From assembly GCA_964570315.1 (NCBI GenBank), contig CAZMXX010000001.1, forward strand, positions 3,649 through 67,648: 64,000 nt of DNA, written 5' to 3'. Both the position numbers and the translations under genes were made by a program. The notes beneath the pieces are model-generated. The model saw only the letters and a list, made by a program, of their open reading frames with translations. It did not search any database and was not told the origin of the DNA. The DNA is from an uncultured Anaerolineaceae bacterium (GTDB taxonomy: Bacteria > Chloroflexota > Anaerolineae > 4572-78). This document shows, piece after piece, positions 11,354 through 48,131 of this stretch (within the stretch, counting starts at the first letter, position 1; each line of letters opens with the position of its first letter).

Positions 11354-11369
11354 ATAGAGGATAATTACC

Positions 11370-13439
11370 ATGATTAATGATTTAGGTTTCTTCACGCTGG
11401 TTTTTGCCACGCTAGCAACCATTTTCGCGATATTCGCCGCTCTAAAAGCCCGAAAAACCTTCGATGTCACATGGCTGTCCGGTTCGCGGCGGGCGGTTAT
11501 CATCACTTTTGTGCTCCTGACGGTTTCCTCTGCGGTAACAATTTACAACCTTGTTTCCGGAAACTATCAGGTTCGCTACGCCTATGAAACATCCGCCAAA
11601 GCAATGCCGCTGTTGCTGAAAGTGACCGCGTTTTGGGGCGGGCAGCAAGGTTCCATTTTGTTCTGGACGTGGCTGATGGCGGGATTTGTGGCGATATTGA
11701 TGTTCCGCAAATGGCACGAAGACCGAGAATTGATGCCGTGGGTCATTGTGGTTTCAATGGGAACGGTATTGTTTTTCCTGCTGGTGGCATTATTCATTTC
11801 CAACCCGTTTGAACGAATGTGGTTCCTGGGGGAAGAATTGGTCTACGCCGTATGGCAACCCGCCGGAACAATGCCCGCCATTCCCCGCAATGGCGAAGGG
11901 TTGAACCCCCTGCTTCGCCACCCCGGGATGATTGGACATCCACCGACACTGTATCTGGGTTTTGTGGGTTTCGTCATCCCCTACGCCTACGCAATTGCCG
12001 CGCTCATCACCGGCAAAGCCGGCGACGATGTGTGGATCCGCACCACTCGCCGCTGGACGCTGGTCGCCTGGGTTTTCCTGTCGATGGGTTTGGTGCTCGG
12101 CGGACGCTGGGCATATGACGTCCTCGGCTGGGGCGGTTTCTGGGGATGGGACCCCGTTGAAAATGCCAGCTTCATGCCCTGGCTCACCGGCACTGCATTT
12201 TTGCACTCGGTGATGATTCAGGAAAAACGGGGGATGTTGAAAGTCTGGAACATCATCCTCATTATTTTAACGTATAGTTTGGTACTCTTCGGCACATTCA
12301 TCACCCGCAGCGGGGTAATTTCATCGGTTCACTCTTTCGGGAACACGCTCATCGGTCCCGCATTCTTCGCTTTCATCGGCGTGACGCTGTTTGCATCGCT
12401 GTACGTGTTGTTCAAACGGCTCGACACCCTGAAAAGTGACCACGAAATGGATTCACTCCTGTCCAGAGAGGCGATTTTCCTGCTGCAAAACCTTCTTTTC
12501 ATCGCCATCACATTTGCCACATTCTGGGGCACGGTTTTCCCGATGATTTCCGAATTGTTCACCGGCACAAAAATCACGGTGGGACCGCCGTATTACAACA
12601 AAGTCAACGGACCTCTCTTCGGGATTTTGGTGCTGACGATGGGGATTGCCCCGTTATTCGCATGGCGAAAGCAATCGGCGAAACGGCTGGGAAAATCGTT
12701 GTGGATTCCGTTTGCCGTTGCCGTCGGTATCGCGGCGGTGCTGTTTGTCGCCGGTATGCACAGTGTCGGGGCGTTGATTGGCTTCTGGCTGGTCTCTTTT
12801 GTCGGGTTTGCCATCCTCTTTGAATTCGGTAAAGGGGCAAAAGCCCGCATGAAACACGGTGAATCGCTGATTGTGGCGCTGGGGCATCTGATTGCCCGCA
12901 ACCGCCGCCGTTATGGCGGGTATATCATCCATTTGGGAGTGGTGATGATTGCGCTGGGCGCAATCGGTACACATTATTTCCAACAGGAAACGCAGGGGAT
13001 GCTTCGCCCCGGTGAAAGTCTGACCGTCGGAGAATATACGCTGACGTTTGAATCTTTGCGGCAGTACAGCCTTGAAGGCGGCGACCGTCAGGTGACGGAA
13101 GCGACCACCAGTTTGTACAAAAACGGCGAGTTTATCCGCACCATGAAACCACGCAAAGACTTCTTTGTGAGCAGCGGGCAACCAATGAGCCTCGCCTCAG
13201 TGTATAGTTTGCCCGGTGAAGATGTGTATGTCTTGCTGGTAGCATGGGAAGAAGTCGGGTTGACCGGTTCAACATTCAAGATATATCTGAACCCGTTGAT
13301 AAACTGGGTCTGGCTCGGCGGGATAACCTTTATTTTTGGAACGCTGGTGGCGGCGTGGCCCAACCGAAAACCGGTGGCAAGTTGGACGGACGCGCGGCGG
13401 GCAGTACGCACCCCGGCAATAGGAGCAACGGTAAAATGA
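11370..13439 (+). CDS. ccmF: Cytochrome c-type biogenesis protein CcmF (heme lyase)
   Basis: 689-aa polytopic protein with the WWD motif WGGFWGWDPVENASFMPWL. Confidence 0.92.
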   Translation: MINDLGFFTLVFATLATIFAIFAALKARKTFDVTWLSGSRRAVIITFVLLTVSSAVTIYNLVSGNYQVRYAYETSAKAMPLLLKVTAFWGGQQGSILFWTWLMAGFVAILMFRKWHEDRELMPWVIVVSMGTVLFFLLVALFISNPFERMWFLGEELVYAVWQPAGTMPAIPRNGEGLNPLLRHPGMIGHPPTLYLGFVGFVIPYAYAIAALITGKAGDDVWIRTTRRWTLVAWVFLSMGLVLGGRWAYDVLGWGGFWGWDPVENASFMPWLTGTAFLHSVMIQEKRGMLKVWNIILIILTYSLVLFGTFITRSGVISSVHSFGNTLIGPAFFAFIGVTLFASLYVLFKRLDTLKSDHEMDSLLSREAIFLLQNLLFIAITFATFWGTVFPMISELFTGTKITVGPPYYNKVNGPLFGILVLTMGIAPLFAWRKQSAKRLGKSLWIPFAVAVGIAAVLFVAGMHSVGALIGFWLVSFVGFAILFEFGKGAKARMKHGESLIVALGHLIARNRRRYGGYIIHLGVVMIALGAIGTHYFQQETQGMLRPGESLTVGEYTLTFESLRQYSLEGGDRQVTEATTSLYKNGEFIRTMKPRKDFFVSSGQPMSLASVYSLPGEDVYVLLVAWEEVGLTGSTFKIYLNPLINWVWLGGITFIFGTLVAAWPNRKPVASWTDARRAVRTPAIGATVK

Positions 13440-13954
13440 AACGATGGATAATCATCACCCTGACGTTGGTATTGTTTTTCGCGGTGGCAAGCATCTTTGT
13501 GGAAGCGCAAGCGCCGAATACCGGCGGCTCGGATGCGCCTGCCCGCGTCATCACGGACGATGAAGTCAATGCAATCGCCAAACAACTCTACTGTCCCGTC
13601 TGCGAAAACACTCCGCTGGATGTGTGCCCCACCCAAGCCTGCAAAGACTGGCGCGAATTAATTCGGCAGCAATTGAGCGACGGCTGGACAGAGCAGCAAA
13701 TCAAAGATTATTTTGTGGCAAGCTTCGGACCGCGGGTGTTGGCAAATCCACCAAATAGAGGATTCACATCGCTGGTGTGGCTGCTACCCATTGCGGCACT
13801 GCTGGCAGGGGGCGCATTCGTCTGGCGGCTTCTGCGGCAGTGGCAGATACAGCACCGCACCAACGCCGATACCGTTGAGCCGATAGATGAAGCTCCGGAT
13901 ATTCCACCTTCGTTATTGGAACAAATAGAAAAAGACGTTGAAGCCAAGTTTTAA
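13436..13954 (+). CDS. ccmH: Cytochrome c-type biogenesis protein CcmH
   Basis: ATGA overlap with the ccmF stop. Signal/TM segment, LYCPVCENTPLDVC (CcmH CxxC motif), C-terminal TM. The upstream part of ORF 13244-13954 overlaps ccmF and is discounted. Confidence 0.85.
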   Translation: MKRWIIITLTLVLFFAVASIFVEAQAPNTGGSDAPARVITDDEVNAIAKQLYCPVCENTPLDVCPTQACKDWRELIRQQLSDGWTEQQIKDYFVASFGPRVLANPPNRGFTSLVWLLPIAALLAGGAFVWRLLRQWQIQHRTNADTVEPIDEAPDIPPSLLEQIEKDVEAKF

Positions 13955-13972
13955 AAAAGGACAATCACTATT

Positions 13973-14503
13973 ATGGACAGCGCATCGTTTTTAATCAGTA
14001 TGGCAATTCTGGCGGGGGTGATGGGATATATTGTGTGGCCCTGGTTCAAAGCCAGAGAACTGGCGGCGCAAGGTTTGGCGCCGGAAGAACCCGCATTTCT
14101 CGCCGGTGAGGTTGACCTGAATACAAAAAGAGAGAAGCTGGTTGCAGCCCTGCGTGACCTTGAATTTGATTACGTGGTAGAAAAAGTTACCCCCGCCGAC
14201 TATGAATCATTGCGCAATCACTTGCTTTCACAGGTGGCGGAAGTTATGACCCAGCAGGAAGCCAGCACAGACGCCGCAATTGACGCGCTGTTGAATCGGG
14301 CGCGAGCGAAAACGTCTGCAACTGCCACCGAAATATGCACGCACTGCGGCGAGAGCGTCCGCGCCGGCGCGCGCTTCTGCGTCTACTGCGGCGAGAAACT
14401 CTCCCAGCAACATTGCCCGGATTGCGGCAGTCCGGCTAATGCGGACGACCAATTTTGCAGCATTTGCGGGTTCAATTTAGAAACACTCACTATGGTAAAT
14501 TAG
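13973..14503 (+). CDS. Membrane-anchored double zinc-ribbon protein (function unknown; sits in the ccm cluster)
   Basis: N-terminal TM (ISMAILAGVMGYIVWPWF). C-terminal CTHCG...FCVYCG...CPDCG...FCSICG. Confidence 0.7.
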   Translation: MDSASFLISMAILAGVMGYIVWPWFKARELAAQGLAPEEPAFLAGEVDLNTKREKLVAALRDLEFDYVVEKVTPADYESLRNHLLSQVAEVMTQQEASTDAAIDALLNRARAKTSATATEICTHCGESVRAGARFCVYCGEKLSQQHCPDCGSPANADDQFCSICGFNLETLTMVN

Positions 14504-14518
14504 CACAGGACAACCCCC

Positions 14519-15241
14519 ATGCCATCCATTACCTATCCGCTGGCGCTTGCCGCGGGCATCCTATCCTTTATTTCACCCTGCGTTTTACCGCTTGTACCCG
14601 TGTATTTGGGATACCTATCGGGCGGCAGCATCACCGGCGCTGCCGCTATTCCCCGCCGCATTGTATTCAAACACGCCCTCTATTTTGTGGGCGGGTTCTC
14701 AGCCATCTTCATCATCCTGTTCGGACTGCCGGCTACCATACTGGGCAGCGCGCTGCAAGATTACAGCAGTTGGATAGCCAAAATCGGCGGGGTGGTGGTC
14801 ATTATCTTCGGCTTGCATGTTTGGGGGGTCATCACCATTCCGTGGTTGAACATGACCCGCCAAATCGAGCTGGGCACCGGATTGCAACCGGGCTTCATGC
14901 GTTCCACCCTGTTCGGCGTGACCTTCGCCGCCGGTTGGACACCGTGCATCGGACCGTTGCTCGGTGCAGTGATGACTATGGCGTTCACCGACCCTTCCCG
15001 CGCGGTCAGCTTTGTTGCCGTCTACGCTCTGGGGCTGGCAATCCCGTTCCTGCTCTCCGCGTTGATGCTCACCCGCGCCAGCAACGCCCTGCGCCGCCTC
15101 AACCGCTATATGCGGGTGGTGGAATACGCCAGCGGCGCACTGATGATCACCGTCGGCATCCTGCTCATCACCGGAATGTTCACCATTATGAACAGCTATT
15201 TCATCCAAATAACCCCGCCGTGGCTGCTGCGCTATCTTTAA
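14519..15241 (+). CDS. ccdA: CcdA/DsbD-family cytochrome c biogenesis thiol-reductant transporter
   Basis: Six TM segments, with conserved Cys in ISPCVLPLVPVY and WTPCIGPLLG. Confidence 0.9.
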   Translation: MPSITYPLALAAGILSFISPCVLPLVPVYLGYLSGGSITGAAAIPRRIVFKHALYFVGGFSAIFIILFGLPATILGSALQDYSSWIAKIGGVVVIIFGLHVWGVITIPWLNMTRQIELGTGLQPGFMRSTLFGVTFAAGWTPCIGPLLGAVMTMAFTDPSRAVSFVAVYALGLAIPFLLSALMLTRASNALRRLNRYMRVVEYASGALMITVGILLITGMFTIMNSYFIQITPPWLLRYL

Positions 15242-15261
15242 AATAAAGGATGTTTCAAGTT

Positions 15262-16032
15262 ATGCTGAACACGCACTCCCAAACCGACACCCCGCTCTTG
15301 GCGGTCACGCTCAATATTGACGGGATGACCTGCAACCACTGTGTCGCCGCCATTCAATCCGGCGTGAGACAGCTTGCGGGCGTGAAATCCGTACAGGTGA
15401 GTTTACGAAAACGCACCGCTCGCATCACCTTCAACCCGGAAAAAACGTCCGTGCCCGCGCTGAAAGCGGCGGTCATTGAGGCGGGATACTTCATCGCCGG
15501 AGAAGATACGCCAACCGCCGTCCTGCCATCCGCCTCAAAAAGTCTTTTCCGGTATTGGCAATTTCGGGTGATTTTTTTCGGCTTGCTCGGCACATTCGGG
15601 CTGATGGCGATCTATCTCGGCTTGGTCAGTTGGGCGGAGGGTTGGGCGCACGCCGTTGAATTAATGCTGGAAGACGCCTGGATTGTGGGACCCATTTTAG
15701 CCGGGTTCGGCATCCAAGTGGGACTGTACACCTATTTAAAAACCGTGGTGCACGCCGCCGGACACGGAACCGGCGCGATGGCGGGCGCGGGCGGCGGCAC
15801 ATCCACCGTGGCGATGGTCGCCTGCTGCGCCCACCACGTCACCGATGTGTTGCCGCTGCTGGGGCTTTCTGCGGCGGCAACATTTTTAGCCGATTACCGC
15901 ATCCCGTTCATGGTCGTGGGGTTGGTCACCAACCTCATCGGCATTGGCGTCATGATTTATGTGATTTTCAAAGAACGCAATCGAATGCGGCAGTTGATGG
16001 TCGCCGTTCCCGCAGAAATGAACACCCATTAA
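15262..16032 (+). CDS. HMA (heavy-metal-associated) domain fused to a multi-TM membrane domain
   Basis: GMTCNHCV metal-binding loop and ferredoxin-like HMA fold, then about 4 TM segments including VACCAHHVTDVLP. ATG 15262 is preferred over 15250 on RBS spacing. Confidence 0.8.
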   Translation: MLNTHSQTDTPLLAVTLNIDGMTCNHCVAAIQSGVRQLAGVKSVQVSLRKRTARITFNPEKTSVPALKAAVIEAGYFIAGEDTPTAVLPSASKSLFRYWQFRVIFFGLLGTFGLMAIYLGLVSWAEGWAHAVELMLEDAWIVGPILAGFGIQVGLYTYLKTVVHAAGHGTGAMAGAGGGTSTVAMVACCAHHVTDVLPLLGLSAAATFLADYRIPFMVVGLVTNLIGIGVMIYVIFKERNRMRQLMVAVPAEMNTH

Positions 16033-16101
16033 TGCCGCAACACTTTGGGGCATCGCCGCCATCCGATGCCCCGACAAAAAAATTATCGCGAGGAATTCAT
16101 A

Positions 16102-16581
16102 ATGAAACGTTGGATTTTAACCCTGTTGGTGGTCAGCATCGGGCTGATAGCAACGGCATGCGGCAACAGCGCCGCCCCCGCCGAAGCCTCAAAACCGGCT
16201 CAGCAACCCGCGCCCGTCTCCGCACCGGCACAAGCAAGCGCACCGGCTGCCGCCGAGTTTGCGCCGCAAACAAACGATGAAAATTCGGTGACCGTGGAAG
16301 TAACACCGCTGAACATCACCGACACCGGCATGGACGTGAAACTCGCTTTCAACACCCACTCCGTGCCGCTGGATTTTGACCCCACCCAAATCATCGTCCT
16401 GCGTGATGCCAACGGCACGGACATCCATCCCGTCAGTTGGGATGGCAGTGGACCCGGCGGGCATCACCGGAAAGGCACGTTGCATTTTGAGCTGGACTCA
16501 CACCCCCAGCAATTCATCGAGCTGGTGGTGCATGATGTTGCCGACATCCCGGCGCGCACATTCCGTTGGGATTTGCAATAA
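16102..16581 (+). CDS. Hypothetical lipoprotein
   Basis: MKRWILTLLVVSIGLIATACG lipobox, Ala/Pro-rich linker, about 100-aa beta-rich domain containing GGHHRKG. The upstream part of ORF 16045 is discounted. Confidence 0.65.
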   Translation: MKRWILTLLVVSIGLIATACGNSAAPAEASKPAQQPAPVSAPAQASAPAAAEFAPQTNDENSVTVEVTPLNITDTGMDVKLAFNTHSVPLDFDPTQIIVLRDANGTDIHPVSWDGSGPGGHHRKGTLHFELDSHPQQFIELVVHDVADIPARTFRWDLQ

Positions 16582-16607
16582 TTTCATTTTAAAGGGGAGA
16601 CAACTGC

Positions 16608-17615
16608 ATGGAGAATCTAACACCACTACCGGAAACGCCGGAGGAAGCACCCGTCATCGCACCGGAACCGGCGCTTCCGGCATCAAAACCCGGCAAACCG
16701 CCGACGCTGAGCCTCCGCGCAAAAGCAATTATCCTGCTGGCAACATACGCCATCGGGTTGCTGAGCGGATTTTTAGTGTGGGGCTGGAAACCGCTCACCG
16801 CGAACACGCCGGAAATCGTCGCCGTACCGACGGTTGCGCCAACCGCAACGCCGGTTCCCGTTTTGCCCACCGAATACACCCTGCCGGTATCTTTCGGCGA
16901 TTTGGGTCCCCAATTAATCGAAGCGGGCGCAATTGACTATGAAAAATTCATCCAAATATACCAGCGTTCCGGCAATCCGCTCTCGGATGAACAGCTCACC
17001 ATCCTGTCAAAGGGCAGCGATGCCCCCATCGTCTTCAACCGTCAGAACGCCTATTTCCTGCTGAACTTCTTCTGGGCATTGGGATTGACCAACGAAAACA
17101 CCTTGCTCACCGACGGTCCGATGGTGCAAAACAGCGGTGGCAACGTGGCGCGATTCGCCTCAACCGGCGGCTGGACGGTCGGCACCAAACCCGTGACCGA
17201 ACTATACGCCAGCACCCCCCTCGTCCCGCTCACCTCGGAGCAGGCGGGCATTCTGGCGACGGTCGCCTCGGCGGTGTATCGTCCATGCTGCAACAACCCC
17301 ACCGCTTTCCCGGACTGCAACCACGGGATGGCAATGCTGGGTATGCTGGAACTGCTGGCGGCAAACGGCGCCACGGAAGACGAACTTTTTGAAGCGGCAA
17401 AATATGCCAACACCTTCTGGTTCCCCCAGCAGAGCGAAGAAATCGCCACCTTTTTCCGCAATGCCAAAAACGTGACCTTCGAGCAGGCGGATGCGCGCGA
17501 TTTTGTGGGACCGTACGTGGCATCCGCCAGCGGTTTCCAAGCCGTACATCAATGGCTCATCGAAAACAACCTTCTGCCGCAAGCGCCTTCCAGCGGCAAT
17601 AGCTGTGGAGTGTAA
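16608..17615 (+). CDS. Hypothetical membrane-anchored protein with a conserved Cys cluster
   Basis: N-terminal Pro-rich region, one TM, soluble domain with YRPCCNNPTAFPDCNHGMA. No family recognised. Confidence 0.7.
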   Translation: MENLTPLPETPEEAPVIAPEPALPASKPGKPPTLSLRAKAIILLATYAIGLLSGFLVWGWKPLTANTPEIVAVPTVAPTATPVPVLPTEYTLPVSFGDLGPQLIEAGAIDYEKFIQIYQRSGNPLSDEQLTILSKGSDAPIVFNRQNAYFLLNFFWALGLTNENTLLTDGPMVQNSGGNVARFASTGGWTVGTKPVTELYASTPLVPLTSEQAGILATVASAVYRPCCNNPTAFPDCNHGMAMLGMLELLAANGATEDELFEAAKYANTFWFPQQSEEIATFFRNAKNVTFEQADARDFVGPYVASASGFQAVHQWLIENNLLPQAPSSGNSCGV

Positions 17616-17616
17616 C

Positions 17617-18039
17617 ATGAAACGAGTACGCATTTTCGGGGTATTCGGGGCTGTTTTTTTGCTGATACTTCTCTCGGCATGCACGGGCAAAGCGCCGCAA
17701 GCCGTCGCCTCGCCCACCAGTTTCGATTTTGGGGAAATTGGACCGATAGACCCCGTTTCCACCACTTTCACCATTTCAAACACCGGTACCGCCCCGCTCA
17801 TCATAGAGGGCATCACCACCTCATGCAGTTGCACCGCCGCCGAAATCAGCGAGGACACCATCGCCCCCGATGGCTCCGCGACGCTGACCGTCACATTTGA
17901 CCCGCAGGTACATGACGGCGCAACCGGACACTTTTTGCGATATGCCTATCTGCAAACCAACGACCCGGAGAACCCGGAATTAAAGGTGGAAATCACCCTT
18001 GATGTCGTTGAAAATAAATCTACACAGGAGACAAACTAA
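17617..18039 (+). CDS. DUF1573-family protein (lipoprotein-like)
   Basis: Signal peptide with LLSAC. FDFGEI...FTISNTGTAPLII...SCSCT...TNDP matches the DUF1573 pattern (F-x-FG, N-x-G, CxC). Confidence 0.75.
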   Translation: MKRVRIFGVFGAVFLLILLSACTGKAPQAVASPTSFDFGEIGPIDPVSTTFTISNTGTAPLIIEGITTSCSCTAAEISEDTIAPDGSATLTVTFDPQVHDGATGHFLRYAYLQTNDPENPELKVEITLDVVENKSTQETN

Positions 18040-18650
18040 TGGGTACAGCCACATACAAAAAACGGAAAAAAAGCTCTAAAAGCCGACGCCGGCAGAAAAA
18101 CAACAGCTCATTCTGGCTGATTGCCGTGGGCGCGTTGATATTGGTTTTGGGCGGCATCATCATCATTCTGAGTGGACAAAGCGGCGGGGGCGGCAATACC
18201 GACCCGATGTCGGCAAAAAATTTACTGCCGCTCACCGACCCGGTCAACCCGATTGAGGGCTGGCATGACATGGAAAATCCGGTTAACCCCAACCAACCCA
18301 AAGATTCCCTGCCCGCCGGCACCCCACAACCCAACATCGATATTCCCATCACCTATTTTGATTTCGGCACAATTCCCGCCGCGCCCGACAACGCCGTTCA
18401 AACCTTCCCCATTCAAAACACCGGCGATGAACCGCTCATCATCAAGCGGATTGTGACTTCATGTGCCTGCACCACCGCCGAACTCACCAGCAGCGTGATT
18501 GAACCGGGCAAACGTGCCGACCTGACCGTCATCTTCGACCCCGATTTTCACGATACACAGGGTCCCGTAAAACGAATTGTGTGGATGGAAACCAACGACC
18601 CGGATATGCCCGTGGCTGAAGTCTCCATCACCGCCAACGTGCAAAAATAG
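18039..18650 (+). CDS. DUF1573-family protein with an N-terminal TM anchor
   Basis: TAATG overlap with the previous gene. Basic N-terminus, TM, FDFGTI...FPIQNTGDEPLII...SCACT...TNDP. Confidence 0.75.
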   Translation: MGTATYKKRKKSSKSRRRQKNNSSFWLIAVGALILVLGGIIIILSGQSGGGGNTDPMSAKNLLPLTDPVNPIEGWHDMENPVNPNQPKDSLPAGTPQPNIDIPITYFDFGTIPAAPDNAVQTFPIQNTGDEPLIIKRIVTSCACTTAELTSSVIEPGKRADLTVIFDPDFHDTQGPVKRIVWMETNDPDMPVAEVSITANVQK

Positions 18651-25406: not shown

Positions 25407-26021
25407 ATGAAACTTCGTTCAATTTCGTTAATCGTTGTCGTTTTTCTTCTCCTCGCCTCCAGCCTCAGCGCGTGCGGCGGCAGTGCCTCCGACCCGTTGA
25501 CGTTGGCGCCGAAAGATATTCTGCCCGATGAAGTGAAAACGGCATCAACCTCGGTGCAGGAAGCGTACCGCTTCGCCGCCGCCAACCCCGATGTGCTGGC
25601 ACAATATCCCTGCTACTGCGGCTGCGGCAACATGGGACACCAAAGCAACCGCGACTGTTTTATTAAAAACATCAATCCCGATGGCACAATTGAATTTGAT
25701 AATCACGCCAATGGCTGCACCCTCTGCGTGGACATCGCCCAAGATGTGATGCGTTTGATGCGTGAGGGGAAAGATGCCGTCACCATCCGGGATTATATTG
25801 ACACAACCTACAGCCCGTTTGGTCCCGGCACGGATACGCCCCCCGTTGGCAGTGTGAACAGCACCAGCAGCGTGAGCAGCACCGGCGCCGCCAACGACGG
25901 CAGCGCAATCGAAGCCTGCACCAAAGAAGTTCCCACCTGCGGCGAAGATACCGGCGGCTCCGCGCCCGCGCTCAACCTTGACGGCGCGCCGCAATCCGCC
26001 GCGCCCGCACCCGGAAAATAA
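25407..26021 (+). CDS. PCYCGC-motif lipoprotein
   Basis: Signal peptide plus lipobox (LSAC). YPCYCGCGNMGHQSNRDCF and a later GCTLC. Ser/Gly/Ala-rich tail. Confidence 0.8.
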   Translation: MKLRSISLIVVVFLLLASSLSACGGSASDPLTLAPKDILPDEVKTASTSVQEAYRFAAANPDVLAQYPCYCGCGNMGHQSNRDCFIKNINPDGTIEFDNHANGCTLCVDIAQDVMRLMREGKDAVTIRDYIDTTYSPFGPGTDTPPVGSVNSTSSVSSTGAANDGSAIEACTKEVPTCGEDTGGSAPALNLDGAPQSAAPAPGK

Positions 26022-26027: not shown

Positions 26028-26483
26028 ATGAAACGCCGACTGCTGTTTTTGCTTCCGTTTTTAGTGCTGGCGCTGGTCATCGCGCTGGTTCCCGTACCGG
26101 CGCTGGCAGAACCGACCACCCGTTACATCACCGTCACCGCCCGCCAATTCGCGTACGACCCGCCCGTGTTGCGCGTCAATCGCGGCGACCGCATCATCAT
26201 CACCCTGCAAGCGGCGGATGTGATGCACGGGTTCTATCTGGACGGGTACGGAATTGATGAACAGGTTGAACCGGGGCAAACCCGCCAAATCGAGTTCATC
26301 GCCGACCGTACCGGCAAATATCGCTATCGGTGTTCCGTCAGTTGCGGACCGCTGCATCCGTTTATGATTGGCGAATTGGTGGTTGAACCCAACCTCACTT
26401 TTGCCCGCGCTATCGGGCTGATGGGCGTGGCTGTCGCCGGAACATTCATGTATTTACGACGGAATTCCGTTGAAATAAATTAA
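26028..26483 (+). CDS. CuA-type cupredoxin domain protein with a C-terminal TM anchor
   Basis: Signal peptide, then VMHGFY-(34 residues from H to C)-CSVSCGPLHPFM. This is H-x34-C-x3-C-x3-H-x2-M, the classical CuA ligand spacing. C-terminal TM IGLMGVAVAGTFMYL. Confidence 0.8.
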   Translation: MKRRLLFLLPFLVLALVIALVPVPALAEPTTRYITVTARQFAYDPPVLRVNRGDRIIITLQAADVMHGFYLDGYGIDEQVEPGQTRQIEFIADRTGKYRYRCSVSCGPLHPFMIGELVVEPNLTFARAIGLMGVAVAGTFMYLRRNSVEIN

Positions 26484-26505
26484 TTTTTTTGAGAGAGGAT
26501 ATGTT

Positions 26506-26997
26506 ATGAGTAAAAAAGTTCGCCGCAAAAAGACTGTGGCTCGCAAAAAAAACCCGTCGTGGGTGTGGGCGGCAGTTGCCGGCGCCGTACTGATTGTCAT
26601 CGGCGGGCTGGCGCTACTGTTCACCTCAAACCAGTCCGATTACGTCCCGGAAGTGACCGGCGCACCCGCGCTGAAAGTTGACCGCGAGCAGATTGATGAA
26701 GGCGACGTGAAGTTGGGCGTCACCAAACGCACGGTTTTCCGGCTGAAAAACGTCGGGGATAAAACGCTGGAAATTTTGGATGAACCGCAAGTTCAGGTTG
26801 TGGAGGGGTGTTGACCGCCCCGCGCCGTCGTCGGTTCGATGACACTCAAACCCGGACAAGAAACTACTTTGACTATGAGCTACCTGATGCACGGAGTTGA
26901 AATGGGGGGGCAACATCAGTTTGATGTCCACGTGAAAACCAATGACCCTGCCCACCCGGAACAGTTATTGGTTGTCCGTTCAAACTGGGTAGAATAA
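26506..26997 (+). CDS. DUF1573-like protein interrupted by one in-frame TGA (codon 103): candidate selenoprotein or recent pseudogene
   Basis: GAGAGAGGA RBS. TM anchor, then FRLKNVGDKTLEI...VVEGC-TGA-PPRAVVGSMTLKPGQETTLTMSY...HVKTNDPAHPE...SNWVE-TAA. The frame stays open for 60 codons after the TGA and keeps family features (PG turn, TNDP) seen in the paralogs at 17617 and 18039. Confidence 0.55.
26827..26843 (+). promoter_or_regulatory. SECIS-like stem-loop 12 nt downstream of the in-frame TGA
   Basis: GUCGUCGGUUCGAUGAC forms a 6-7 bp stem (one G-U pair) with a GGUUC/GUU apical loop. Its size and distance from the UGA resemble the minimal bacterial SECIS upper stem-loop. Confidence 0.35.
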
Positions 26998-27046: not shown

Positions 27047-28423
27047 ATGATGCAAAACCGTTTTGAACTCACCCGATACCGCTGGCTTAAAAAAATGTTG
27101 CAGTGGCGCGGCTTTCAGCCGGTATTGATGCTCTTCACCCTGTTCTTTTTCGTCATTGCCATCCTCACCGGCTTTTTCGGCACACCCGCCGGCAGTCATA
27201 ATTTCGGCATTATTTTTGTGTGGATTGTCTGGTGGGCGTTGCTCATGATTGTGATGGTGCCTTTCTTCGCGCGGTTGTGGTGCACCATCTGCCCCATCCC
27301 CGCCCCCGGCGAATGGCTTCAACGGCGTTCGCTCATTCGGCGCAGACCGGGCAAACTGTACACCCTGCGCCGACGCTGGCCCCGAAAATTACGCAACATC
27401 TGGATGCAAAACTTCGGGTTTTTGGCGGTGGCGCTCTTCAGCACCATCATCCTCACCCGCCCGTCGGTGAGCGCCTGGGTTTTACTGGGGATGATTCTCG
27501 TCGCCATTGCGCTCAGTATTCTGTATGAAAATCGCATCTTTTGCCGGTATGTCTGCCCCGTCGGGGGATTTATCGGACTGTATTCGCTCACCTCCACCCT
27601 TGAATTGCGAGTGAAAGATGCGCAAATCTGCAAAGACCACAAAACCAAAGATTGCGTCACCGGCAACGAGCTGGGCTACGGTTGCCCGTGGCTGGTTTAC
27701 CCCGGCAAACTGGAGCGCAACACCTACTGCGGCATGTGTACCGCCTGCCTCACCACTTGCACCCAAGATAACATCGCCATCAACCTGCGTCCGTTTGGCG
27801 CGGATTTGCTGGTAGAAAAAGGTCGCTCACTCGATGAAGCCTTCAAAGCGCTCATTATGCTGGCGTGCGCCATGCTGTACAGCGCCGTTCTGCTCGGTCC
27901 GTGGGGCTGGGTGAAAGATTGGGCGAATATGGACACCCTGCCCCATTGGGCAATTTATGCCGTTTCATTCATTGCGGTGAACTTGCTGGCGCTGCCGGGC
28001 ATCTTCTGGCTCACCGCCGCCGCTGCCCGCAAACTCGCCCGGCTGGAAATCCCCCTGAAAAAAGTATTTGTAGATGTGGCATACAGTCTGGTGCCGATGG
28101 GTCTCATCGGTTGGATTGCCTTCAGCTTCAGTTTCGTCTTTGTGAACGGCAGTTACGCCCTCTCCGTCCTCAGCGACCCCTTCGGCTGGGGCTGGGATTT
28201 GTTCGGCACACGCAGTTTCCCGTGGACACCCATTCTGCCCGACATGGTTGCCGGGCTACAAATTCTGCTGTTGCTGGCAGGGCTGATATATGCTATCATC
28301 ATCGCCTATCGCATTATTCGCCGCCGCGCCGCCACCGACAATCTGGCATGGCGGGGGACGCTCCCGGTGGCGGGCTTCCTTTCTGCGGTCACATTCACAT
28401 TTTTGAGGTTATACATCGGATGA
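27047..28423 (+). CDS. NapH/NosH/MauN-like integral membrane polyferredoxin (4Fe-4S binding)
   Basis: About 8-10 TM segments. CxxxCP-type motifs LWCTICPIP and FCRYVCPVGG. Ferredoxin motif YCGMCTACLTTCTQDNI plus a KDC...GYGCP half-site. Confidence 0.85.
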   Translation: MMQNRFELTRYRWLKKMLQWRGFQPVLMLFTLFFFVIAILTGFFGTPAGSHNFGIIFVWIVWWALLMIVMVPFFARLWCTICPIPAPGEWLQRRSLIRRRPGKLYTLRRRWPRKLRNIWMQNFGFLAVALFSTIILTRPSVSAWVLLGMILVAIALSILYENRIFCRYVCPVGGFIGLYSLTSTLELRVKDAQICKDHKTKDCVTGNELGYGCPWLVYPGKLERNTYCGMCTACLTTCTQDNIAINLRPFGADLLVEKGRSLDEAFKALIMLACAMLYSAVLLGPWGWVKDWANMDTLPHWAIYAVSFIAVNLLALPGIFWLTAAAARKLARLEIPLKKVFVDVAYSLVPMGLIGWIAFSFSFVFVNGSYALSVLSDPFGWGWDLFGTRSFPWTPILPDMVAGLQILLLLAGLIYAIIIAYRIIRRRAATDNLAWRGTLPVAGFLSAVTFTFLRLYIG

Positions 28424-29412
28424 AATTTCTTGCCGACCGCGCCGAACAACGCGCCATCATCGCTCTGATATTCATTCTCATCGGGGTTCCGGTGATAATT
28501 TTGGGCTACCAATTCGGTATCCGCCCGCGCTTAAACACCATCCGCACCATTGATATTGTTGCCGCCGCGCCGGAAAACGGTGGATTCCAACCGGCGGCTT
28601 TTGAAGTAAACGCGGGCGAAACCATCCGCCTGCGGGTTTCCTCGCCCGATGTGGTTCACGGGCTGGCAATTGGACCCGGCGAAGGGTGGGATTTCGGCAT
28701 CGTCAAACCCGGCGAGGTGAAGGAAATTGAAATTACGTTTCCGGAAGCGGGACGATACACGCTCTATTGCAACGTGTGGTGCAGCCCCTCCCACTGGCGC
28801 ATGCGCGCCGCCATTGATGTATTCGGGGATGCACTCGCCACAACCCCCGACCCCATCATTGAACGGTTGACGGCACAGGGCATTGACATTGATGCCCCCC
28901 ACCCCGCCGAGAACGCCCCCGCAGAAAAGCCGTCGGTGGCGCGCGGAAAGACGCTGCTGGCAGACGTTCAATCCACTCTCCCCCCGGAGGTGCTGTCCGC
29001 AGCATGGCGGCAGTCGCACAGCCCGGCAGAGGCGCGAGCATTGCTCATCAATTTAAATGATGCCGAAGCGTGGGATATTGTGGCGGCGCTGTGGCTGGCA
29101 GACGCCGACCCCGTGCAATTGGATGAATCGCAGGTGTTGTATGCGAAAAATTGCGCGGCGTGTCACGGCGCAACCGGCATCGGCGACGGCATCGGCGCGG
29201 CGACGTTGATTGAGCAGGGGTACATGGGCGACGGTCCCGCCGCCTTCGCCGACCCGACGACGATGCTCGGCGCGAGCAGCGATATTCTGTATGGCAAGCT
29301 TCGGCGGGGCGGTATGGGCACGGGGATGCCGGGATTCGGCACGGTGTTCACCCGCGAACAATCGGCGCAGATGATTGATTATCTGTGGACATTTGTCTTC
29401 AGCACGGAATGA
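28420..29412 (+). CDS. CuA-type cupredoxin fused to a class I cytochrome c (caa3 subunit II-like, but orphan)
   Basis: ATGA overlap with the polyferredoxin stop. One TM. VVHGLA-(36 residues from H to C)-CNVWCSPSHWRM gives C-x3-C-x3-H-x2-M. C-terminal CAACHG with a downstream GMGTGMPGF Met region. The 5' part of ORF 27865 overlaps the previous gene in another frame. Confidence 0.8.
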   Translation: MKFLADRAEQRAIIALIFILIGVPVIILGYQFGIRPRLNTIRTIDIVAAAPENGGFQPAAFEVNAGETIRLRVSSPDVVHGLAIGPGEGWDFGIVKPGEVKEIEITFPEAGRYTLYCNVWCSPSHWRMRAAIDVFGDALATTPDPIIERLTAQGIDIDAPHPAENAPAEKPSVARGKTLLADVQSTLPPEVLSAAWRQSHSPAEARALLINLNDAEAWDIVAALWLADADPVQLDESQVLYAKNCAACHGATGIGDGIGAATLIEQGYMGDGPAAFADPTTMLGASSDILYGKLRRGGMGTGMPGFGTVFTREQSAQMIDYLWTFVFSTE

Positions 29413-33717: not shown

Positions 33718-37344
<3,627 letters not shown>

Positions 37345-37372
37345 GCAACCATAAAACAGAAGGAGCAATTAA

Positions 37373-38869
37373 ATGAATGTAAGAGCACAAGTTTCGATGA
37401 TGTTTCATTTGGATAAATGTATCGGTTGCCACACATGCAGTCTCGCTTGTAAAAACATTTGGACAGACCGCGAAGGCACTGAATATATGTGGTGGAACAA
37501 CGTGGAAACCAAACCGGGCACGGGCTATCCCACCCGTTGGGAAGACCAAGACAAATACCGGGGCGGCTGGCAAAAGAACGGCAAAGGCAGCGTCCACCTC
37601 CGCGCCACCGATAAACTGCGCGGCTTCACCAACATCTTCCATCAACCGTATCTGCCCACCATTGATGACTATTACGAGCCGTGGACATACCGCTACAGCG
37701 ACCTGTTCGACGCCCCTCCCGGCGACGACCAGCCCACCGCCCGCCCCATCTCGCTCATCACCGGCGCACCGATGGACATCGAAGCCGGTCCCATCTGGGA
37801 TGATGACATGGGCGGCTCGAACATCTACGCCGCCAATGACCCCGACTTCGCCGACCTGACCGAGCCGGAAAAACAAGCCTTCTTCGAGATGGAACGGATG
37901 GTATTCTTCTACCTGCCGCGCATCTGCAACCACTGCCTCAACCCCGGTTGTGTGGCGGCATGTCCCTCCGGCGCGCTGTACAAACGCGGCGAAGACGGCA
38001 TCGTGCTGGTGAATCAAAATGTGTGCCGGGCATGGCGCTACTGTGTTTCGGCGTGCCCGTACAAAAAAGTGTATTACAACTGGAAATCGGGCAAATCGGA
38101 AAAATGTATCCTCTGCTACCCCCGATTGGAAAGCGGGCAAGCGCCGGCGTGCTTCCATTCCTGCGTCGGACGCATCCGCTACCTCGGCGTGGTGCTGTAT
38201 GATGCCGACCTGATTGAAGAAACCGCCGCCGCCCCCGACGATGAACTGGTGCAGCGTCAGCGGGAGATGATTTTAGACCCCTTCGACCCCGCCGTCATCG
38301 CCCAAGCGAAAAAAGACGGCGTGCATCACTCGGTCGTTGAAGCCGCGCAGAAATCGCCGGTATACCGCTTCGTGAAAGAATGGCAACTGGCATTGCCGCT
38401 GCATCCGGAATTCCGCACCCTGCCAATGTTGTTTTACATTCCGCCATTGTTGCCGGTGCTGGCACGCATGGAAGATGGCGACACCTACAACGTGGATGCC
38501 ACCGATTATTTCGGTTCGCTGGAAAAAGCCCGCGTCCCCATCAAATACATGGCAAACCTGTTCACCGGCGGGAATGAAGGGCATCTGGTGGAAACGTTTG
38601 AAAAATTGCTCACCGTGCGCATGTTCAAACGTTCCGGTGAAGTGGGCGATGTCAGCCTTGAAAAAGTGAAAGAAATGATGGCAGCAACGGGACTCACCGC
38701 CGAAGCCTGCGAAGAAATCTACCGGCTCACCTCCATTCCCACCTTCGATGAACGGTTCGTCATTCCGCCCATGCACCGCGAATACGCCACCGAACTCATG
38801 GGCGACCCGTACACCTTCAAAGCCGAAACCGGCATCGGGTTCCGCGGCAAACCTACCAGGGGGTTATAA
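37373..38869 (+). CDS. narH: Respiratory nitrate reductase beta subunit NarH
   Basis: MFHLDKCIGCHTCSLACKNIW, CNHCLNPGCVAACP, CRAWRYCVSACPY, KCILCYPR: the four Fe-S cluster motifs of NarH. Confidence 0.97.
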   Translation: MNVRAQVSMMFHLDKCIGCHTCSLACKNIWTDREGTEYMWWNNVETKPGTGYPTRWEDQDKYRGGWQKNGKGSVHLRATDKLRGFTNIFHQPYLPTIDDYYEPWTYRYSDLFDAPPGDDQPTARPISLITGAPMDIEAGPIWDDDMGGSNIYAANDPDFADLTEPEKQAFFEMERMVFFYLPRICNHCLNPGCVAACPSGALYKRGEDGIVLVNQNVCRAWRYCVSACPYKKVYYNWKSGKSEKCILCYPRLESGQAPACFHSCVGRIRYLGVVLYDADLIEETAAAPDDELVQRQREMILDPFDPAVIAQAKKDGVHHSVVEAAQKSPVYRFVKEWQLALPLHPEFRTLPMLFYIPPLLPVLARMEDGDTYNVDATDYFGSLEKARVPIKYMANLFTGGNEGHLVETFEKLLTVRMFKRSGEVGDVSLEKVKEMMAATGLTAEACEEIYRLTSIPTFDERFVIPPMHREYATELMGDPYTFKAETGIGFRGKPTRGL

Positions 38870-38871
38870 CC

Positions 38872-39408
38872 ATGCAGCAACAAAAATTTTACCGCTATTG
38901 CAGTGAACTGCTCAACTATCCGACAGAACAGTTGGAAAATCAGGCTCGCACATGTGTGACGCTGCTGGTGGTAGATTACCCTGAAGCGGCACAATCCATG
39001 CAAAAATTCCTCGATGGCATCAAAGGTATTTCTTTGGGCAGGCTGGAAGAAATTTACACCGGCACGTTCGATGTCAGCCCCACCTGTTTCATCTACGCCG
39101 GGTACATCTTGTTTGGCGAAAGTTTCAAACGGGGCAGATTCATGGTTCGGTTGCAGGAAGAATATTACAAATACGGGTTCGACCGGGGAAAAGAGCTTGC
39201 CGACCATCTGGCGGTGATTATGCGGTTTTTGAGCAACATAGAAACAGACGACGAATTCACCCAATCGCTGAAAACTGATTGTCTCATTCCCGTATACACC
39301 AAAATGCTTGCCGGGTTCAATCAGGGCGGGCAAAATCCGTATTTCCATCTGCTGCATGCCATCATCAACGTGCTGGAGAAAACACAAGTAACGGTACCTG
39401 CCGGTTAA
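38872..39408 (+). CDS. narJ: Nitrate reductase assembly chaperone NarJ
   Basis: 178 aa at the canonical position between narH and narI. TorD/NarJ-like helical protein (YTGTFD..., ADHLAVIMRFL). Confidence 0.85.
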   Translation: MQQQKFYRYCSELLNYPTEQLENQARTCVTLLVVDYPEAAQSMQKFLDGIKGISLGRLEEIYTGTFDVSPTCFIYAGYILFGESFKRGRFMVRLQEEYYKYGFDRGKELADHLAVIMRFLSNIETDDEFTQSLKTDCLIPVYTKMLAGFNQGGQNPYFHLLHAIINVLEKTQVTVPAG

Positions 39409-39440
39409 CACAACCGGCGCACACCAATTGGAGGAATGTT

Positions 39441-40130
39441 ATGACTGTTGCGCAATTACTTTTTGGCGTATTTCCATACGTCGCCATCATATTGGCGGTG
39501 GTGGGGACAATTTGGCGGTATCGGAGCGATAAATTCTCATACTCCAGCCTGTCATCGCAATTTCTGGAAACCAAACAACTATTCTGGGGGTCTGTCCCCT
39601 GGCATTACGGAATTTTAACGGTGCTGACCGGGCATCTGGTGGCATTTCTGGTTCCCCGTTCAATTCTGGGCTGGAACGGTGTCCCCATCCGGCTGTACAT
39701 CTTGGAAGGGATGGCGCTGATAGCCGGCATTTTGGCGCTGGTGGGGCTGGTACTGCTCATCATCCGCCGTCTGAACAGCCCTCGTCTGTGGCACATCACC
39801 TCGGTGATGGACAGCATTCTGCTGCTGGCGCTGCTGGTACAGGTTGTCGCGGGCGTGTGGACTGCCATCTTCTACCGCTGGGGGTCGTCGTGGTTCGCCG
39901 CCTTTGCCACGCCGTACCTGTGGTCAATCTTAATATTCAAACCGGATATTGCTTTGGTGAGCAATATGCCGTGGGTGGTGCAAACGCACATTGTGGGCGG
40001 CTTCGTGCTGTTGGCGCTGTTGCCGTTCACCCGGCTGGTTCACCTGTTGTCGTTCCCATATGCGTATTTATGGCGTCCGCCGCAAGTGGTCATCTGGTAT
40101 CGGCGGTCACGTCTGGGCGGTTCGCGGTAA
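39441..40130 (+). CDS. narI: Respiratory nitrate reductase gamma subunit NarI (diheme cytochrome b)
   Basis: Five TM segments, conserved His (WHYG, GHLVAF, VQTHIVGG, RLVHLLS). GGAGGA RBS. The 5' part of ORF 39279 overlaps narJ. Confidence 0.9.
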   Translation: MTVAQLLFGVFPYVAIILAVVGTIWRYRSDKFSYSSLSSQFLETKQLFWGSVPWHYGILTVLTGHLVAFLVPRSILGWNGVPIRLYILEGMALIAGILALVGLVLLIIRRLNSPRLWHITSVMDSILLLALLVQVVAGVWTAIFYRWGSSWFAAFATPYLWSILIFKPDIALVSNMPWVVQTHIVGGFVLLALLPFTRLVHLLSFPYAYLWRPPQVVIWYRRSRLGGSR

Positions 40131-46645: not shown

Positions 46646-46798
46646 ACCCATATCAGTGGGTAAAAGTGCCCGCGAGATAGTGTCATGTGTATTTCTGATG
46701 GAGGTGTTTATTGAAAAAAACCCGGAAATAACTGTACCATATGTACTCTGCCACGTATTTATGCCACATTTCTCAACATGGAGGTTAGAGGGATAAAA

Positions 46799-48049: not shown

Positions 48050-48075
48050 TCACCCCATAAATTCAACGCAAGATG

Positions 48076-48103: not shown

Positions 48104-48131
48104 CTATCCTATTAGAGGGAGACCCTGACGC

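What the first reader, a model, noticed from the sequence alone, without database searches (positions are those of the whole stretch)
26506..26997. In-frame TGA at the Cys-motif position of a DUF1573-like gene, followed by a SECIS-like hairpin: candidate new selenoprotein family member
The ORF track ends this gene at TGA 26812-26814 (...VQVVEGC-stop). The same frame then stays open for 60 more codons to TAA 26995-26997. The read-through part keeps features shared with the two intact DUF1573 paralogs in this window: LKPGQETTLTMSY against IAPDGSATLTVTF and IEPGKRADLTVIF, and VKTNDPAHPE against QTNDPENPE and ETNDPDMPV.

The TGA falls immediately after a Cys, giving C-U. It aligns within one residue of the second Cys of the family CxC motif (SCSCT/SCACT). 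Cys-to-Sec substitution in a redox motif is the usual signature of selenoproteins.

Twelve nt after the UGA, GUCGUCGGUUCGAUGAC (26827-26843) can form a 6-7 bp stem with a G/U-containing apical loop (GGUUC). This is similar in size and distance to the minimal SelB-binding upper stem-loop of characterised bacterial SECIS elements. Other genes in the window use TGA as an ordinary stop (for example ccmF), so global TGA reassignment is not the explanation.

The alternative is a recent nonsense mutation or a sequencing error.
Basis: partly seen in the sequence, partly recalled or inferred. Interest (0 to 1): 0.72.

Follow-up and report, generated by a model that had tools for sequence, protein, structure and literature searches.

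The report
Selenocysteine gene in copper operon
The apparent stop codon in the middle of this small membrane-anchored protein is almost certainly read as selenocysteine, which makes it an unannotated selenoprotein sitting in a conserved copper-protein gene cluster of Chloroflexota bacteria.

Summary

**Gene.** ORF 26506-26814 ends at TGA after ...VVEGC, and the frame stays open to TAA 26995-26997. The Pfam DUF1573 match spans the TGA and passes its cut-off only for the read-through protein.

**Comparative evidence.**
- 40 related loci (30 distinct DNA sequences, 27-75% identical) carry TGA at exactly this codon, never TAA or TAG.
- 37 other homologues carry Cys there (GC-C-PP against GC-U-PP).
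- Downstream codons are under purifying selection (median dN/dS 0.14), and no start codon is conserved after the TGA.

**Hairpin.** A 6-bp hairpin with loop N-G-U-N-N starts 12 nt after the UGA.
- It is paired in 100% of the TGA (Sec) forms.
- Three of its six pairs show compensatory changes.
- Third-codon positions inside it are frozen, but only in Sec forms.

**Placement.** TGA is an ordinary stop for 12 other genes in the window. DUF1573 is already a listed selenoprotein family (OS_HP2, motif UGC). This clade fails that curated model (25 bits against a cut-off of 100) and places Sec one column later, next to a Cys.

**Context.** The conserved gene order is PCYCGC protein, CuA-type cupredoxin, this gene, NapH/CcoG-like membrane protein, cupredoxin-cytochrome c. 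This suggests copper handling, which is inferred, not shown.

**Gap.** The Sec machinery of the source genome could not be checked.

The parts
26491..26499 (+). Likely ribosome-binding site (GAGAGAGGA), 6 nt before the ATG
   Evidence: Read directly from the sequence; not tested.
26506..26997 (+). Full selenoprotein gene: 163 codons plus TAA, with Sec at codon 103. It encodes an N-terminal Lys/Arg-rich tail, one transmembrane helix and an Ig-like DUF1573 domain.
   Evidence: Translation. Pfam match across the TGA. Orthologues have the same architecture. AlphaFold2 model of the 51%-identical Cys homologue P0002: pLDDT 88.5, helix 23-47 plus a beta-sandwich.
26560..26622 (+). Membrane anchor (residues ~19-39, WVWAAVAGAVLIVIGGLALLF). 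The preceding K/R-rich tail predicts an N-in orientation with the domain outside the cytoplasm.
   Evidence: Sequence; helix in the model of the homologue. Topology is inferred from the positive-inside rule.
26812..26814 (+). UGA read as selenocysteine (motif G-C-U-P-P); the following base is always C
   Evidence: TGA at this codon in 40 related loci (30 distinct sequences), never TAA or TAG. TGC/TGT (Cys) at the same codon in 37 homologues.
26827..26843 (+). SECIS-type hairpin inside the coding sequence: stem 26827-26832 / 26838-26843, loop 26833-26837 (GGUUC; the G and U at loop positions 2-3 are invariant)
   Evidence: 100% of cells paired in 29 distinct sequences. Three of six pairs have compensatory changes. 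With the pairing partner slid by 1-3 columns as a control, only 1-71% are paired. RNAalifold finds the same helix. Third-codon positions of codons +5 to +9 are 100% conserved in Sec forms only.
26887..26916 (+). Invariant Met/His loop (M128 H129 ... M133 . G135 . H137), the probable metal site together with Cys102-Sec103
   Evidence: Invariant columns in alignments of 14 and 23 homologues. Metal binding is inferred.
26995..26997 (+). True stop codon (TAA) after ...SNWVE
   Evidence: All orthologues end 1-3 residues after the invariant SNW.
25407..26021 (+). Upstream neighbour: PCYCGC-family protein (all Cys here)
   Evidence: Pfam PF13798, E = 2e-30. NCBIfam NF041379 CYCXC (seleno)protein, 73.6 bits, below its cut-off of 90. 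Present beside the gene in most related loci.
26028..26483 (+). Upstream neighbour: small cupredoxin with a CuA-type motif (H...CSVSCGPLHPFM)
   Evidence: Pfam COX2/Cupredoxin_1; NCBIfam hits to the NosZ/CoxB CuA domains. Motif read from the translation.
27047..28423 (+). Downstream neighbour: polytopic membrane protein with Fer4_5 (NapH/MauN/NosR-like) iron-sulfur motifs
   Evidence: Pfam PF12801; NCBIfam NapH/MauN, weak. Conserved position in related loci.
28420..29412 (+). Downstream neighbour: cupredoxin (CuA-type motif CNVWCSPSHWRM) fused to a c-type cytochrome
   Evidence: Pfam Cytochrom_C; NCBIfam CoxB/NosZ CuA-domain hits. Motif read from the translation.

Best explanation
Window 26506-26997 is one gene for a 163-residue selenoprotein.

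**Recoding.** UGA at 26812-26814 is decoded as selenocysteine by the standard bacterial route. The hairpin that starts 12 nt downstream (6-bp stem, loop N-G-U-N-N) would serve as the SECIS element that recruits SelB carrying Sec-tRNA(Sec). This gives a vicinal Cys102-Sec103 pair in the motif G-C-U-P-P.

**The protein.** It is anchored in the membrane by one N-terminal helix, with its Ig-like DUF1573 domain outside the cytoplasm.

**Function (inferred, less certain).** The Cys-Sec pair, together with the invariant Met/His loop (M-H-x3-M-x-G-x-H), probably forms a copper(I)-binding and/or thiol-selenol redox site. I propose it serves the two CuA-type cupredoxins encoded on either side. It would be the metal-delivery or site-reducing partner in a conserved five-gene module: PCYCGC protein, CuA cupredoxin, this gene, NapH/CcoG-like membrane Fe-S protein, cupredoxin-cytochrome c.

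**Shown and inferred.**
- Shown: the conserved UGA/Cys pair, the translated downstream half, and the conserved and covarying hairpin.
- Inferred: SelB dependence, extracytoplasmic location and copper function.
For: **1. UGA/Cys pair.**
- About 16 database homologues stop at ...GC, while full-length ones read GCCPP.
- In DNA, 40 loci (30 distinct, 27-75% identical to the window protein) have TGA at this codon.
- 37 loci have TGC or TGT there.

**2. The downstream half is translated.**
- The frame is open to ...SNW-x-stop in every orthologue.
- Median dN/dS is 0.14 over 201 pairs.
- No start codon is conserved after the TGA; only 3 of 30 share the window's ATG.
- The Pfam domain spans the TGA.

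**3. Hairpin.**
- It is paired in 100% of 29 distinct sequences.
- Compensatory changes occur at 3 of 6 pairs (G-C to A-U, U-A to C-G).
- With the pairing partner slid by 1-3 columns as a control, only 1-71% are paired.
- Synonymous sites in the hairpin are frozen in Sec forms but not in Cys forms.
- Only 6 of 37 Cys forms keep all six pairs.
- The Cys form L002, 85% identical to the Sec form L064, has lost the 3' arm.

**4. No reassignment.** TGA ends 12 other genes in the window.

**5. Lineage.** Homologues come from Chloroflexota/Anaerolineae MAGs. Chloroflexi/Chloroflexota include Sec users (PMC1794560, PMC13326102).

**6. Function.**
- The invariant columns are GC[C/U]PP, MH, M, H and SNW.
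- Synteny is conserved.
- Both flanking cupredoxins carry CuA-type motifs.
- A membrane helix plus an Ig-like fold is predicted.
Against: - No selA, selB, selD or tRNA-Sec lies in the 64 kb window or in about 610 kb of related loci. The rest of the genome could not be searched.
- No Rfam family matches the hairpin.
- The 70-nt region is not more stable than shuffled sequence.
- The stem sequence is nearly the same in most orthologues, so covariation rests on four divergent sequences (L003, L051, L068, L071).
- For the copper function there is no direct evidence. The fold search finds only generic ASH/PapD-like Ig domains. The protein matches no known copper-chaperone family.
Confidence: 0.87

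Rival explanations
1. Hairpin-stimulated read-through of UGA without selenocysteine. A near-cognate tRNA would insert Trp, Cys, Arg or Gly, and the structure would act only as a read-through enhancer.
For: - The Sec machinery was not found, because it could not be searched for.
- UGA followed by C is a weak termination context (my own knowledge), and every orthologue has TGA-C.
Against: - The column holds only Cys in the 37 non-TGA homologues, which is the signature of Sec/Cys exchange.
- The hairpin's position and its invariant G-U in the loop fit the SelB-binding type (the SelB specificity is from my own knowledge).
- Sec and Cys forms interchange between close relatives, and the hairpin decays after the change to Cys.
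Confidence: 0.06
2. Split gene. Translation ends at the TGA, giving a 102-residue membrane-anchored fragment, and the downstream 52-60 codons are made separately or not at all.
For: - Gene callers annotate exactly this.
- The window has an in-frame ATG at 26839.
Against: - Only 3 of 30 orthologues have a start codon near that place.
- The TGA cuts the beta-sandwich in the middle of a domain that homologues make as one chain.
- The cut always falls on the invariant Cys-Cys column.
Confidence: 0.04
3. Recent nonsense mutation (pseudogene) or sequencing/assembly error in this contig.
For: None beyond the presence of a stop codon. A single TGT/TGC-to-TGA change would suffice.
Against: - The same TGA occurs in 30 distinct sequences from many samples and assemblies.
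- There is strong purifying selection downstream.
- A hairpin is conserved specifically in the TGA forms.
Confidence: 0.01
4. Genome-wide reassignment of UGA to an amino acid.
For: None.
Against: - 12 of the other 52 genes in the window end at TGA, at positions consistent with full-length domains, often with the next gene starting at once.
- No such genetic code is known in Chloroflexota (my own knowledge).
Confidence: 0.01

Closest known systems
OS_HP2 / DUF1573 domain-containing selenoprotein (Zhang & Gladyshev 2007, PMC1976440; listed with motif UGC in PMC9312934 and PMC13188914; NCBIfam NF041425)
   Same: - Same Pfam superfamily (PF07610).
- Sec lies in the same Cys-bearing loop of the Ig-like domain.
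- Cys-containing relatives exist.
- It is a bacterial selenoprotein of unknown function.
   Different: - The window protein scores 25.1 bits against NF041425 (cut-off 100), lower than its own CxC paralogues at 50-55 bits.
- Its motif is a vicinal C-U followed by PP, not U-G-C. Sec sits on the middle column of the family's CxC, and the second Cys is replaced by Pro.
- It has a 5-residue insertion before the motif and an invariant Met/His loop.
- It comes from Chloroflexota, not Deltaproteobacteria.
Escherichia coli fdhF-type bacterial SECIS (minimal SelB-binding upper stem-loop)
   Same: - A short stem-loop inside the coding sequence.
- It starts 12 nt after the UGA; the E. coli element starts 11 nt after (own knowledge).
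- It has an invariant G-U in the apical loop.
   Different: - No bulged U.
- No conserved lower stem was detected.
- There is no Rfam match.
- Binding to SelB is untested.
Vicinal Cys-Sec motifs: mammalian thioredoxin reductase C-terminal G-C-U-G (own knowledge), and bacterial 'CU' selenoproteins such as the CopZ-family form 2 protein and MerB-like SaoL (PMC13188914)
   Same: - Adjacent Cys and Sec after a Gly, able in principle to form a selenenylsulfide or to chelate a soft metal.
- The bacterial examples are linked to metals.
   Different: - Unrelated folds.
- Here the pair lies in an internal loop of an extracytoplasmic Ig-like domain, not at a C-terminus or in a ferredoxin-like fold.
Periplasmic copper chaperones for CuA sites (PCuAC, Sco)
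   Same: - Membrane-anchored or periplasmic small beta-sandwich or redox proteins encoded next to CuA proteins.
- PCuAC uses a Met/His Cu(I) site and Sco a Cys pair plus His (own knowledge).
- Here both kinds of ligand are invariant.
   Different: - No sequence match to those families.
- Function is inferred from context only.

Membership tests
Bacterial SECIS/SelB-dependent selenoprotein | In-frame UGA conserved among diverged orthologues | tested here: met
   40 loci, 30 distinct sequences, always TGA.
Bacterial SECIS/SelB-dependent selenoprotein | Homologues with Cys aligned to the UGA | tested here: met
   37 loci with TGC/TGT; GCCPP is invariant in 23 full-length proteins.
Bacterial SECIS/SelB-dependent selenoprotein | Sequence after the UGA conserved as protein in the same frame | tested here: met
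   Median dN/dS 0.14; the Pfam domain spans the UGA; no conserved restart codon.
Bacterial SECIS/SelB-dependent selenoprotein | [quoted passage not shown] | tested here: met
   6-bp stem, 100% paired, 3 of 6 pairs covary, loop G-U invariant; synonymous sites frozen only in Sec forms.
Bacterial SECIS/SelB-dependent selenoprotein | selA, selB, selC (tRNA-Sec) and selD present in the same genome | not testable with these tools
   None found in the window or in the fetched loci (and the Pfam scans 5, 38, 39, 56, 57, 79).
Bacterial SECIS/SelB-dependent selenoprotein | Selenium found in the protein | not testable with these tools
   Needs 75Se labelling or mass spectrometry.
DUF1573 (Pfam PF07610) | Score at or above the Pfam gathering cut-off | tested here: met
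   29.2 bits against 26.1 for the read-through protein, residues 56-154. hhalign against the window paralogue gives probability 98.4%.
OS_HP2 family (seleno)protein, NCBIfam NF041425 | Score at or above the curated cut-off (100 bits) | tested here: not met
   25.1 bits.
OS_HP2 family (seleno)protein, NCBIfam NF041425 | Sec at the first position of the U-G-C (CxC) motif | tested here: not met
   Sec aligns with the middle residue of CxC, Cys102 with the first Cys and Pro with the second. No OS_HP2 sequence was in hand, so the comparison uses the published motif and the window's CxC paralogues.
Rfam SECIS families | Covariance-model match | tested here: not met
   No match even at E <= 10. Rfam has no general model for bacterial SECIS elements (own knowledge).
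Known CuA/copper chaperones (PCuAC, Sco, CopZ, CopC) | Sequence match to the family model | tested here: not met
   Pfam and NCBIfam scans of the protein list none of them. The resemblance is functional and inferred.

The most novel reading that the evidence does not exclude
This clade would be a selenium-dependent maturation factor for CuA centres. An extracytoplasmic Ig-fold protein would use its vicinal Cys-Sec pair and Met/His loop to reduce the CuA-site cysteines of the neighbouring cupredoxins and hand them Cu(I). It would stand in for Sco/PCuAC in Anaerolineae. That would make copper-centre assembly in these bacteria depend on selenium.
Probability: 0.2. Interest if true: 0.65.

Novelty: new member of a known kind. 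Interest (0 to 1): 0.48.

Why it matters
**Annotation.** In every public record examined, this gene is annotated as a 102-112-residue fragment of unknown function, sometimes with a second small orphan ORF after it. Recognising the UGA as Sec restores a full domain in dozens of Chloroflexota genomes and metagenomes.

**What it adds.**
- A second, distinct Sec position in the DUF1573 superfamily.
- A clean example of Sec and Cys exchanging repeatedly between close relatives, with the SECIS hairpin decaying, or lingering as a remnant, after the change to Cys.

**Function.** The invariant Cys-Sec/Met/His residues and the fixed neighbourhood of two CuA-type cupredoxins give a testable function for part of a large domain family that has none. 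They suggest a link between selenium and copper-protein assembly.

Tried and rejected
- **Thermodynamic significance of the region.** Not significant for 70 nt; only the isolated 17-mer stands out. I therefore relied on comparative evidence.
- **Rfam.** Both the gathering-score and the permissive scan found nothing.
- **tRNA-Sec.** ARAGORN on the window and 48 loci found none.
- **sel genes.** Pfam scans of essentially all window genes found none.
- **Other selenoprotein genes.**
  - A scan of the window for TGA-bridged ORFs gave only off-frame noise.
  - A scan of all 610 kb for 'TGA + 8-19 nt + 6-bp stem with GU in the loop' recovered all 40 GCUPP genes and six unconvincing others.
  - A search for further copies of the hairpin in the window found only the target exactly; the two mismatched hits are within chance.
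- **Genome collection scan.** This is why the Sec machinery of a TGA-form genome could not be searched.
- **Structure of the window protein.** Coordinates are not returned, so distances between the Cys pair and the Met/His residues could not be measured.
- **Fold search.** Only generic Ig/ASH/PapD-like domains, with no functional lead.
- **Source genome.** Attempts to name it gave no names, and the CcmF look-up found nothing on record.
- **Literature.** Searches on the function of DUF1573 and PCYCGC found nothing beyond 'unknown'. One paper on selenoprotein neighbourhoods is not held.

Full report
**1. What is in the sequence**

The ORF starting at ATG 26506 ends at TGA 26812-26814 after ...QVQVVEGC. 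The same frame continues for 60 codons (PPRAVVGSMTLKPGQETTLTMSYLMHGVEMGGQHQFDVHVKTNDPAHPEQLLVVRSNWVE) to TAA 26995-26997.

With the TGA read through, the protein matches Pfam DUF1573 (PF07610, 29.2 bits, cut-off 26.1) and the related HYDIN/VesB Ig-like family. Both matches cover residues 54/56-154/158, so they run straight across the TGA. Either half alone is below threshold.

Two intact paralogues lie at 17491-18039 and 18039-18650, with the motifs SCSCT and SCACT. MAFFT and a profile comparison agree on the placement: Cys102 lies on the first Cys of that CxC, the TGA on the middle residue, and Pro on the second Cys.

The hairpin GUCGUCGGUUCGAUGAC lies at 26827-26843, 12 nt after the UGA.

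**2. Is the TGA a sense codon?**

*Protein search.* A search with the read-through sequence returned two classes of relatives.
- About 35 proteins of roughly 160 residues read G-C-C-P-P at this place.
- About 16 proteins of 101-112 residues (38-75% identical) all end at ...(E/T)GC.

*DNA of relatives.* I fetched DNA for both classes.
- The species-genome collection gave 36 loci, all Cys forms because the tool's search pattern contained GCCPP. Nearly all are from Chloroflexota/Anaerolineae MAGs.
- Look-ups of truncated proteins, and a metagenome scan seeded with the N-terminal halves only, gave the rest.

*Result.*
- 40 loci (30 distinct sequences) have TGA at exactly this codon, never TAA or TAG. 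The frame then stays open to ...SNW-x-stop.
- 37 loci have TGC or TGT there.
- One MAG contig (L003) carries a Sec form and a Cys form in tandem.

*Downstream half.* Excluding the hairpin region, codons after the TGA evolve with median dN/dS of 0.14 (201 pairs). Only 3 of 30 sequences share the window's in-frame ATG at 26839, so the second half is not a separately initiated gene.

*Other TGAs.* In the window itself, TGA ends 12 other genes (TAA 30, TAG 10). That excludes reassignment.

A pseudogene, a sequencing error and a split gene are therefore not tenable.

**3. The hairpin**

I aligned the 30 distinct Sec-form sequences without gaps.
- The 6-bp stem (window 26827-26832 with 26838-26843) forms standard pairs in 100% of cells.
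- Three of six pairs show changes on both sides that keep pairing:
  - G-C to A-U at two positions, with the window's G-U as an intermediate;
  - U-A to C-G.
- Sliding the 3' partner by 1-3 columns drops pairing to 1-71%.
- RNAalifold predicts the same helix independently.
- The loop is N-G-U-N-N with G and U invariant.

The clearest signal is at synonymous sites.
- In Sec forms, the third-codon positions of codons +5 to +9 are 100% conserved.
- Elsewhere in the same genes, and in the same codons of Cys forms, they are 40-60% conserved.
- Among Cys forms only 6 of 37 keep six pairs.
  - L027 and L030 carry an intact hairpin, best read as a remnant. Such remnants have been described before (PMC1794560).
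  - L002, 85% identical to the Sec form L064, has a decayed 3' arm.
- Sec and Cys forms are interleaved by similarity, so the exchange happened several times.

Caveats:
- Most orthologues share nearly the same stem, so covariation rests on four divergent sequences.
- The 70-nt region is not thermodynamically unusual.
- Rfam has no match.

Position and loop fit the minimal SelB-binding element of E. coli fdhF, which is a stem-loop 11 nt after the UGA with G and U in the loop. That comparison is from my own knowledge and was not tested.

**4. What could not be tested**

I found no tRNA-Sec and no selA, selB or selD in the window or in about 610 kb of related loci (Pfam scans 5, 38, 39, 56, 57, 79). 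This says little, because the rest of the genome is out of reach. Chloroflexi/Chloroflexota do include selenoprotein users, some with very large selenoproteomes (PMC1794560, PMC13326102). The presence of the machinery is therefore inferred from the selection evidence, not shown.

**5. What the protein is and probably does**

*Architecture.* A K/R-rich N-terminus is followed by a single hydrophobic helix and then the domain. The AlphaFold2 model of the 51%-identical Cys homologue P0002 is confident (pLDDT 88.5). It shows a membrane helix and an Ig-like sandwich. Its structural neighbours are generic ASH/PapD/HYDIN-type domains and a Porphyromonas gingivalis protein of unknown function, PDB 2qsv. 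By the positive-inside rule the domain faces outward.

*Invariant residues.* Across the clade these are G-C-[C/U]-P-P, M-H, M, G, H and S-N-W. They amount to a soft-ligand set (Cys, Sec, Met, His) typical of Cu(I) sites.

*Neighbourhood.* The gene order is fixed in both Sec-form and Cys-form loci.
- A PCYCGC-family protein.
- A small cupredoxin.
- This gene.
- A polytopic Fer4_5 (NapH/MauN/NosR-like) membrane protein.
- A cupredoxin fused to cytochrome c.

Both cupredoxins carry the CuA-type ligand pattern C-x3-C-x3-H-x2-M (CSVSCGPLHPFM and CNVWCSPSHWRM, read). Both also hit the CuA domains of NosZ and CoxB.

*Wider window.* It encodes cytochrome c maturation genes, a CopZ-like HMA protein, the two CxC paralogues, narGHJI and multihaem cytochromes.

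*Preferred reading.* The protein is an extracytoplasmic copper-binding and/or thiol-selenol redox partner of the CuA cupredoxins. This is inference from residues and context. I give it about even odds, and roughly 0.2 to the specific idea that it is a CuA maturation factor.

**6. Comparison with what is known**

DUF1573 is already on the published lists of prokaryotic selenoprotein families, with motif UGC. It is attributed there to the Olavius symbiont study (PMC9312934, PMC13188914). I take it to be that study's OS_HP2, on the strength of the NCBIfam model name, since the paper itself gives no motif for OS_HP2 (PMC1976440). NCBIfam has a model for it, NF041425.

The window protein is not a member of that curated family.
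- It scores 25.1 bits against a cut-off of 100, less than its own CxC paralogues at 50-55 bits.
- Its Sec is one column further on, next to a retained Cys and followed by two prolines.

The neighbouring PCYCGC family is also a known selenoprotein family (OS_HP4, motif UxxC), but it is all-Cys in every locus examined here.

Vicinal Cys-Sec pairs are known elsewhere:
- G-C-U-G of thioredoxin reductase (own knowledge);
- the 'CU' forms of a CopZ-family protein and of SaoL (PMC13188914).

I found no description of the G-C-U-P-P clade in the reviews and tool papers I could read. Database projects that search by homology may nevertheless already hold it.

**7. Verdict**

This is a real selenoprotein gene read by the ordinary bacterial mechanism, with confidence about 0.87; the remaining doubt is the unverified machinery. 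It is a new Sec-bearing clade of a superfamily already known to contain selenoproteins, so I rate it a new member of a known kind. The mechanism is not surprising. The value lies in correcting a systematic mis-annotation, in the clear natural experiment on hairpin gain and loss, and in a testable copper-related function for part of DUF1573.

Noticed in passing
window 26028-26483 and 28420-29412: Both cupredoxins flanking the selenoprotein gene carry a CuA-type ligand pattern (C-x3-C-x3-H-x2-M), and the second is fused to a c-type cytochrome. No oxidase subunit I or NosZ catalytic domain lies nearby, so their redox partner is unknown.
   Followed up: partly
window 25407-26021, and most related loci: The PCYCGC-family neighbour belongs to a family with known Sec members (OS_HP4/CYCXC, motif UxxC). 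All three motif cysteines are TGC/TGT in every locus examined, including those where the DUF1573 gene uses Sec.
   Followed up: yes
L027 6157-6230 and L030 6247-6320: Two Cys-form genes keep a perfect copy of the SECIS-type hairpin (ACCAUCGGUUCGAUGGU) 12 nt after a TGT Cys codon. This is probably a remnant of a recent Sec-to-Cys change. L006 and L008 keep a wobble-rich version.
   Followed up: partly
L003 (JAMDDR010000390.1) 5729 and 6325: One MAG contig carries a Cys form and a Sec form of the gene in tandem, 65% identical to each other.
   Followed up: partly
L009 (JBGAGV010000005.1, labelled Chthoniobacteraceae): The only non-Chloroflexota record holding the gene is 89% identical in this domain to an Anaerolineales MAG from the same study (L011). 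This suggests a binning or labelling problem, or a recent transfer.
   Followed up: no
window 10781-18650: A cytochrome c maturation block (thioredoxin-like protein, CcmF, CcmH, DsbD-type membrane protein) is followed by a CopZ-like HMA-domain protein. That protein also resembles the UxxU metal-binding (seleno)protein family. After it come two proteins with no family match and the two CxC DUF1573 paralogues.
   Followed up: partly
window 33718-40130 and 46778-51624: A narGHJI-type nitrate reductase cluster with two MFS transporters, then three multihaem cytochromes (MtrC/NapC-like). One of them has a collagen-like repeat at its N-terminus.
   Followed up: no
window 27865-29412: The mechanical ORF list extends this gene upstream to a GTG at 27865, inside the preceding gene. 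The gene as called in related contigs starts at 28420 and overlaps the preceding TGA (ATGA junction).
   Followed up: yes
window 19-1125: The first ORF has only a HAD-type hydrolase domain and begins near the window edge. It may be the C-terminal part of a P-type (possibly copper) ATPase cut by the window start.
   Followed up: no
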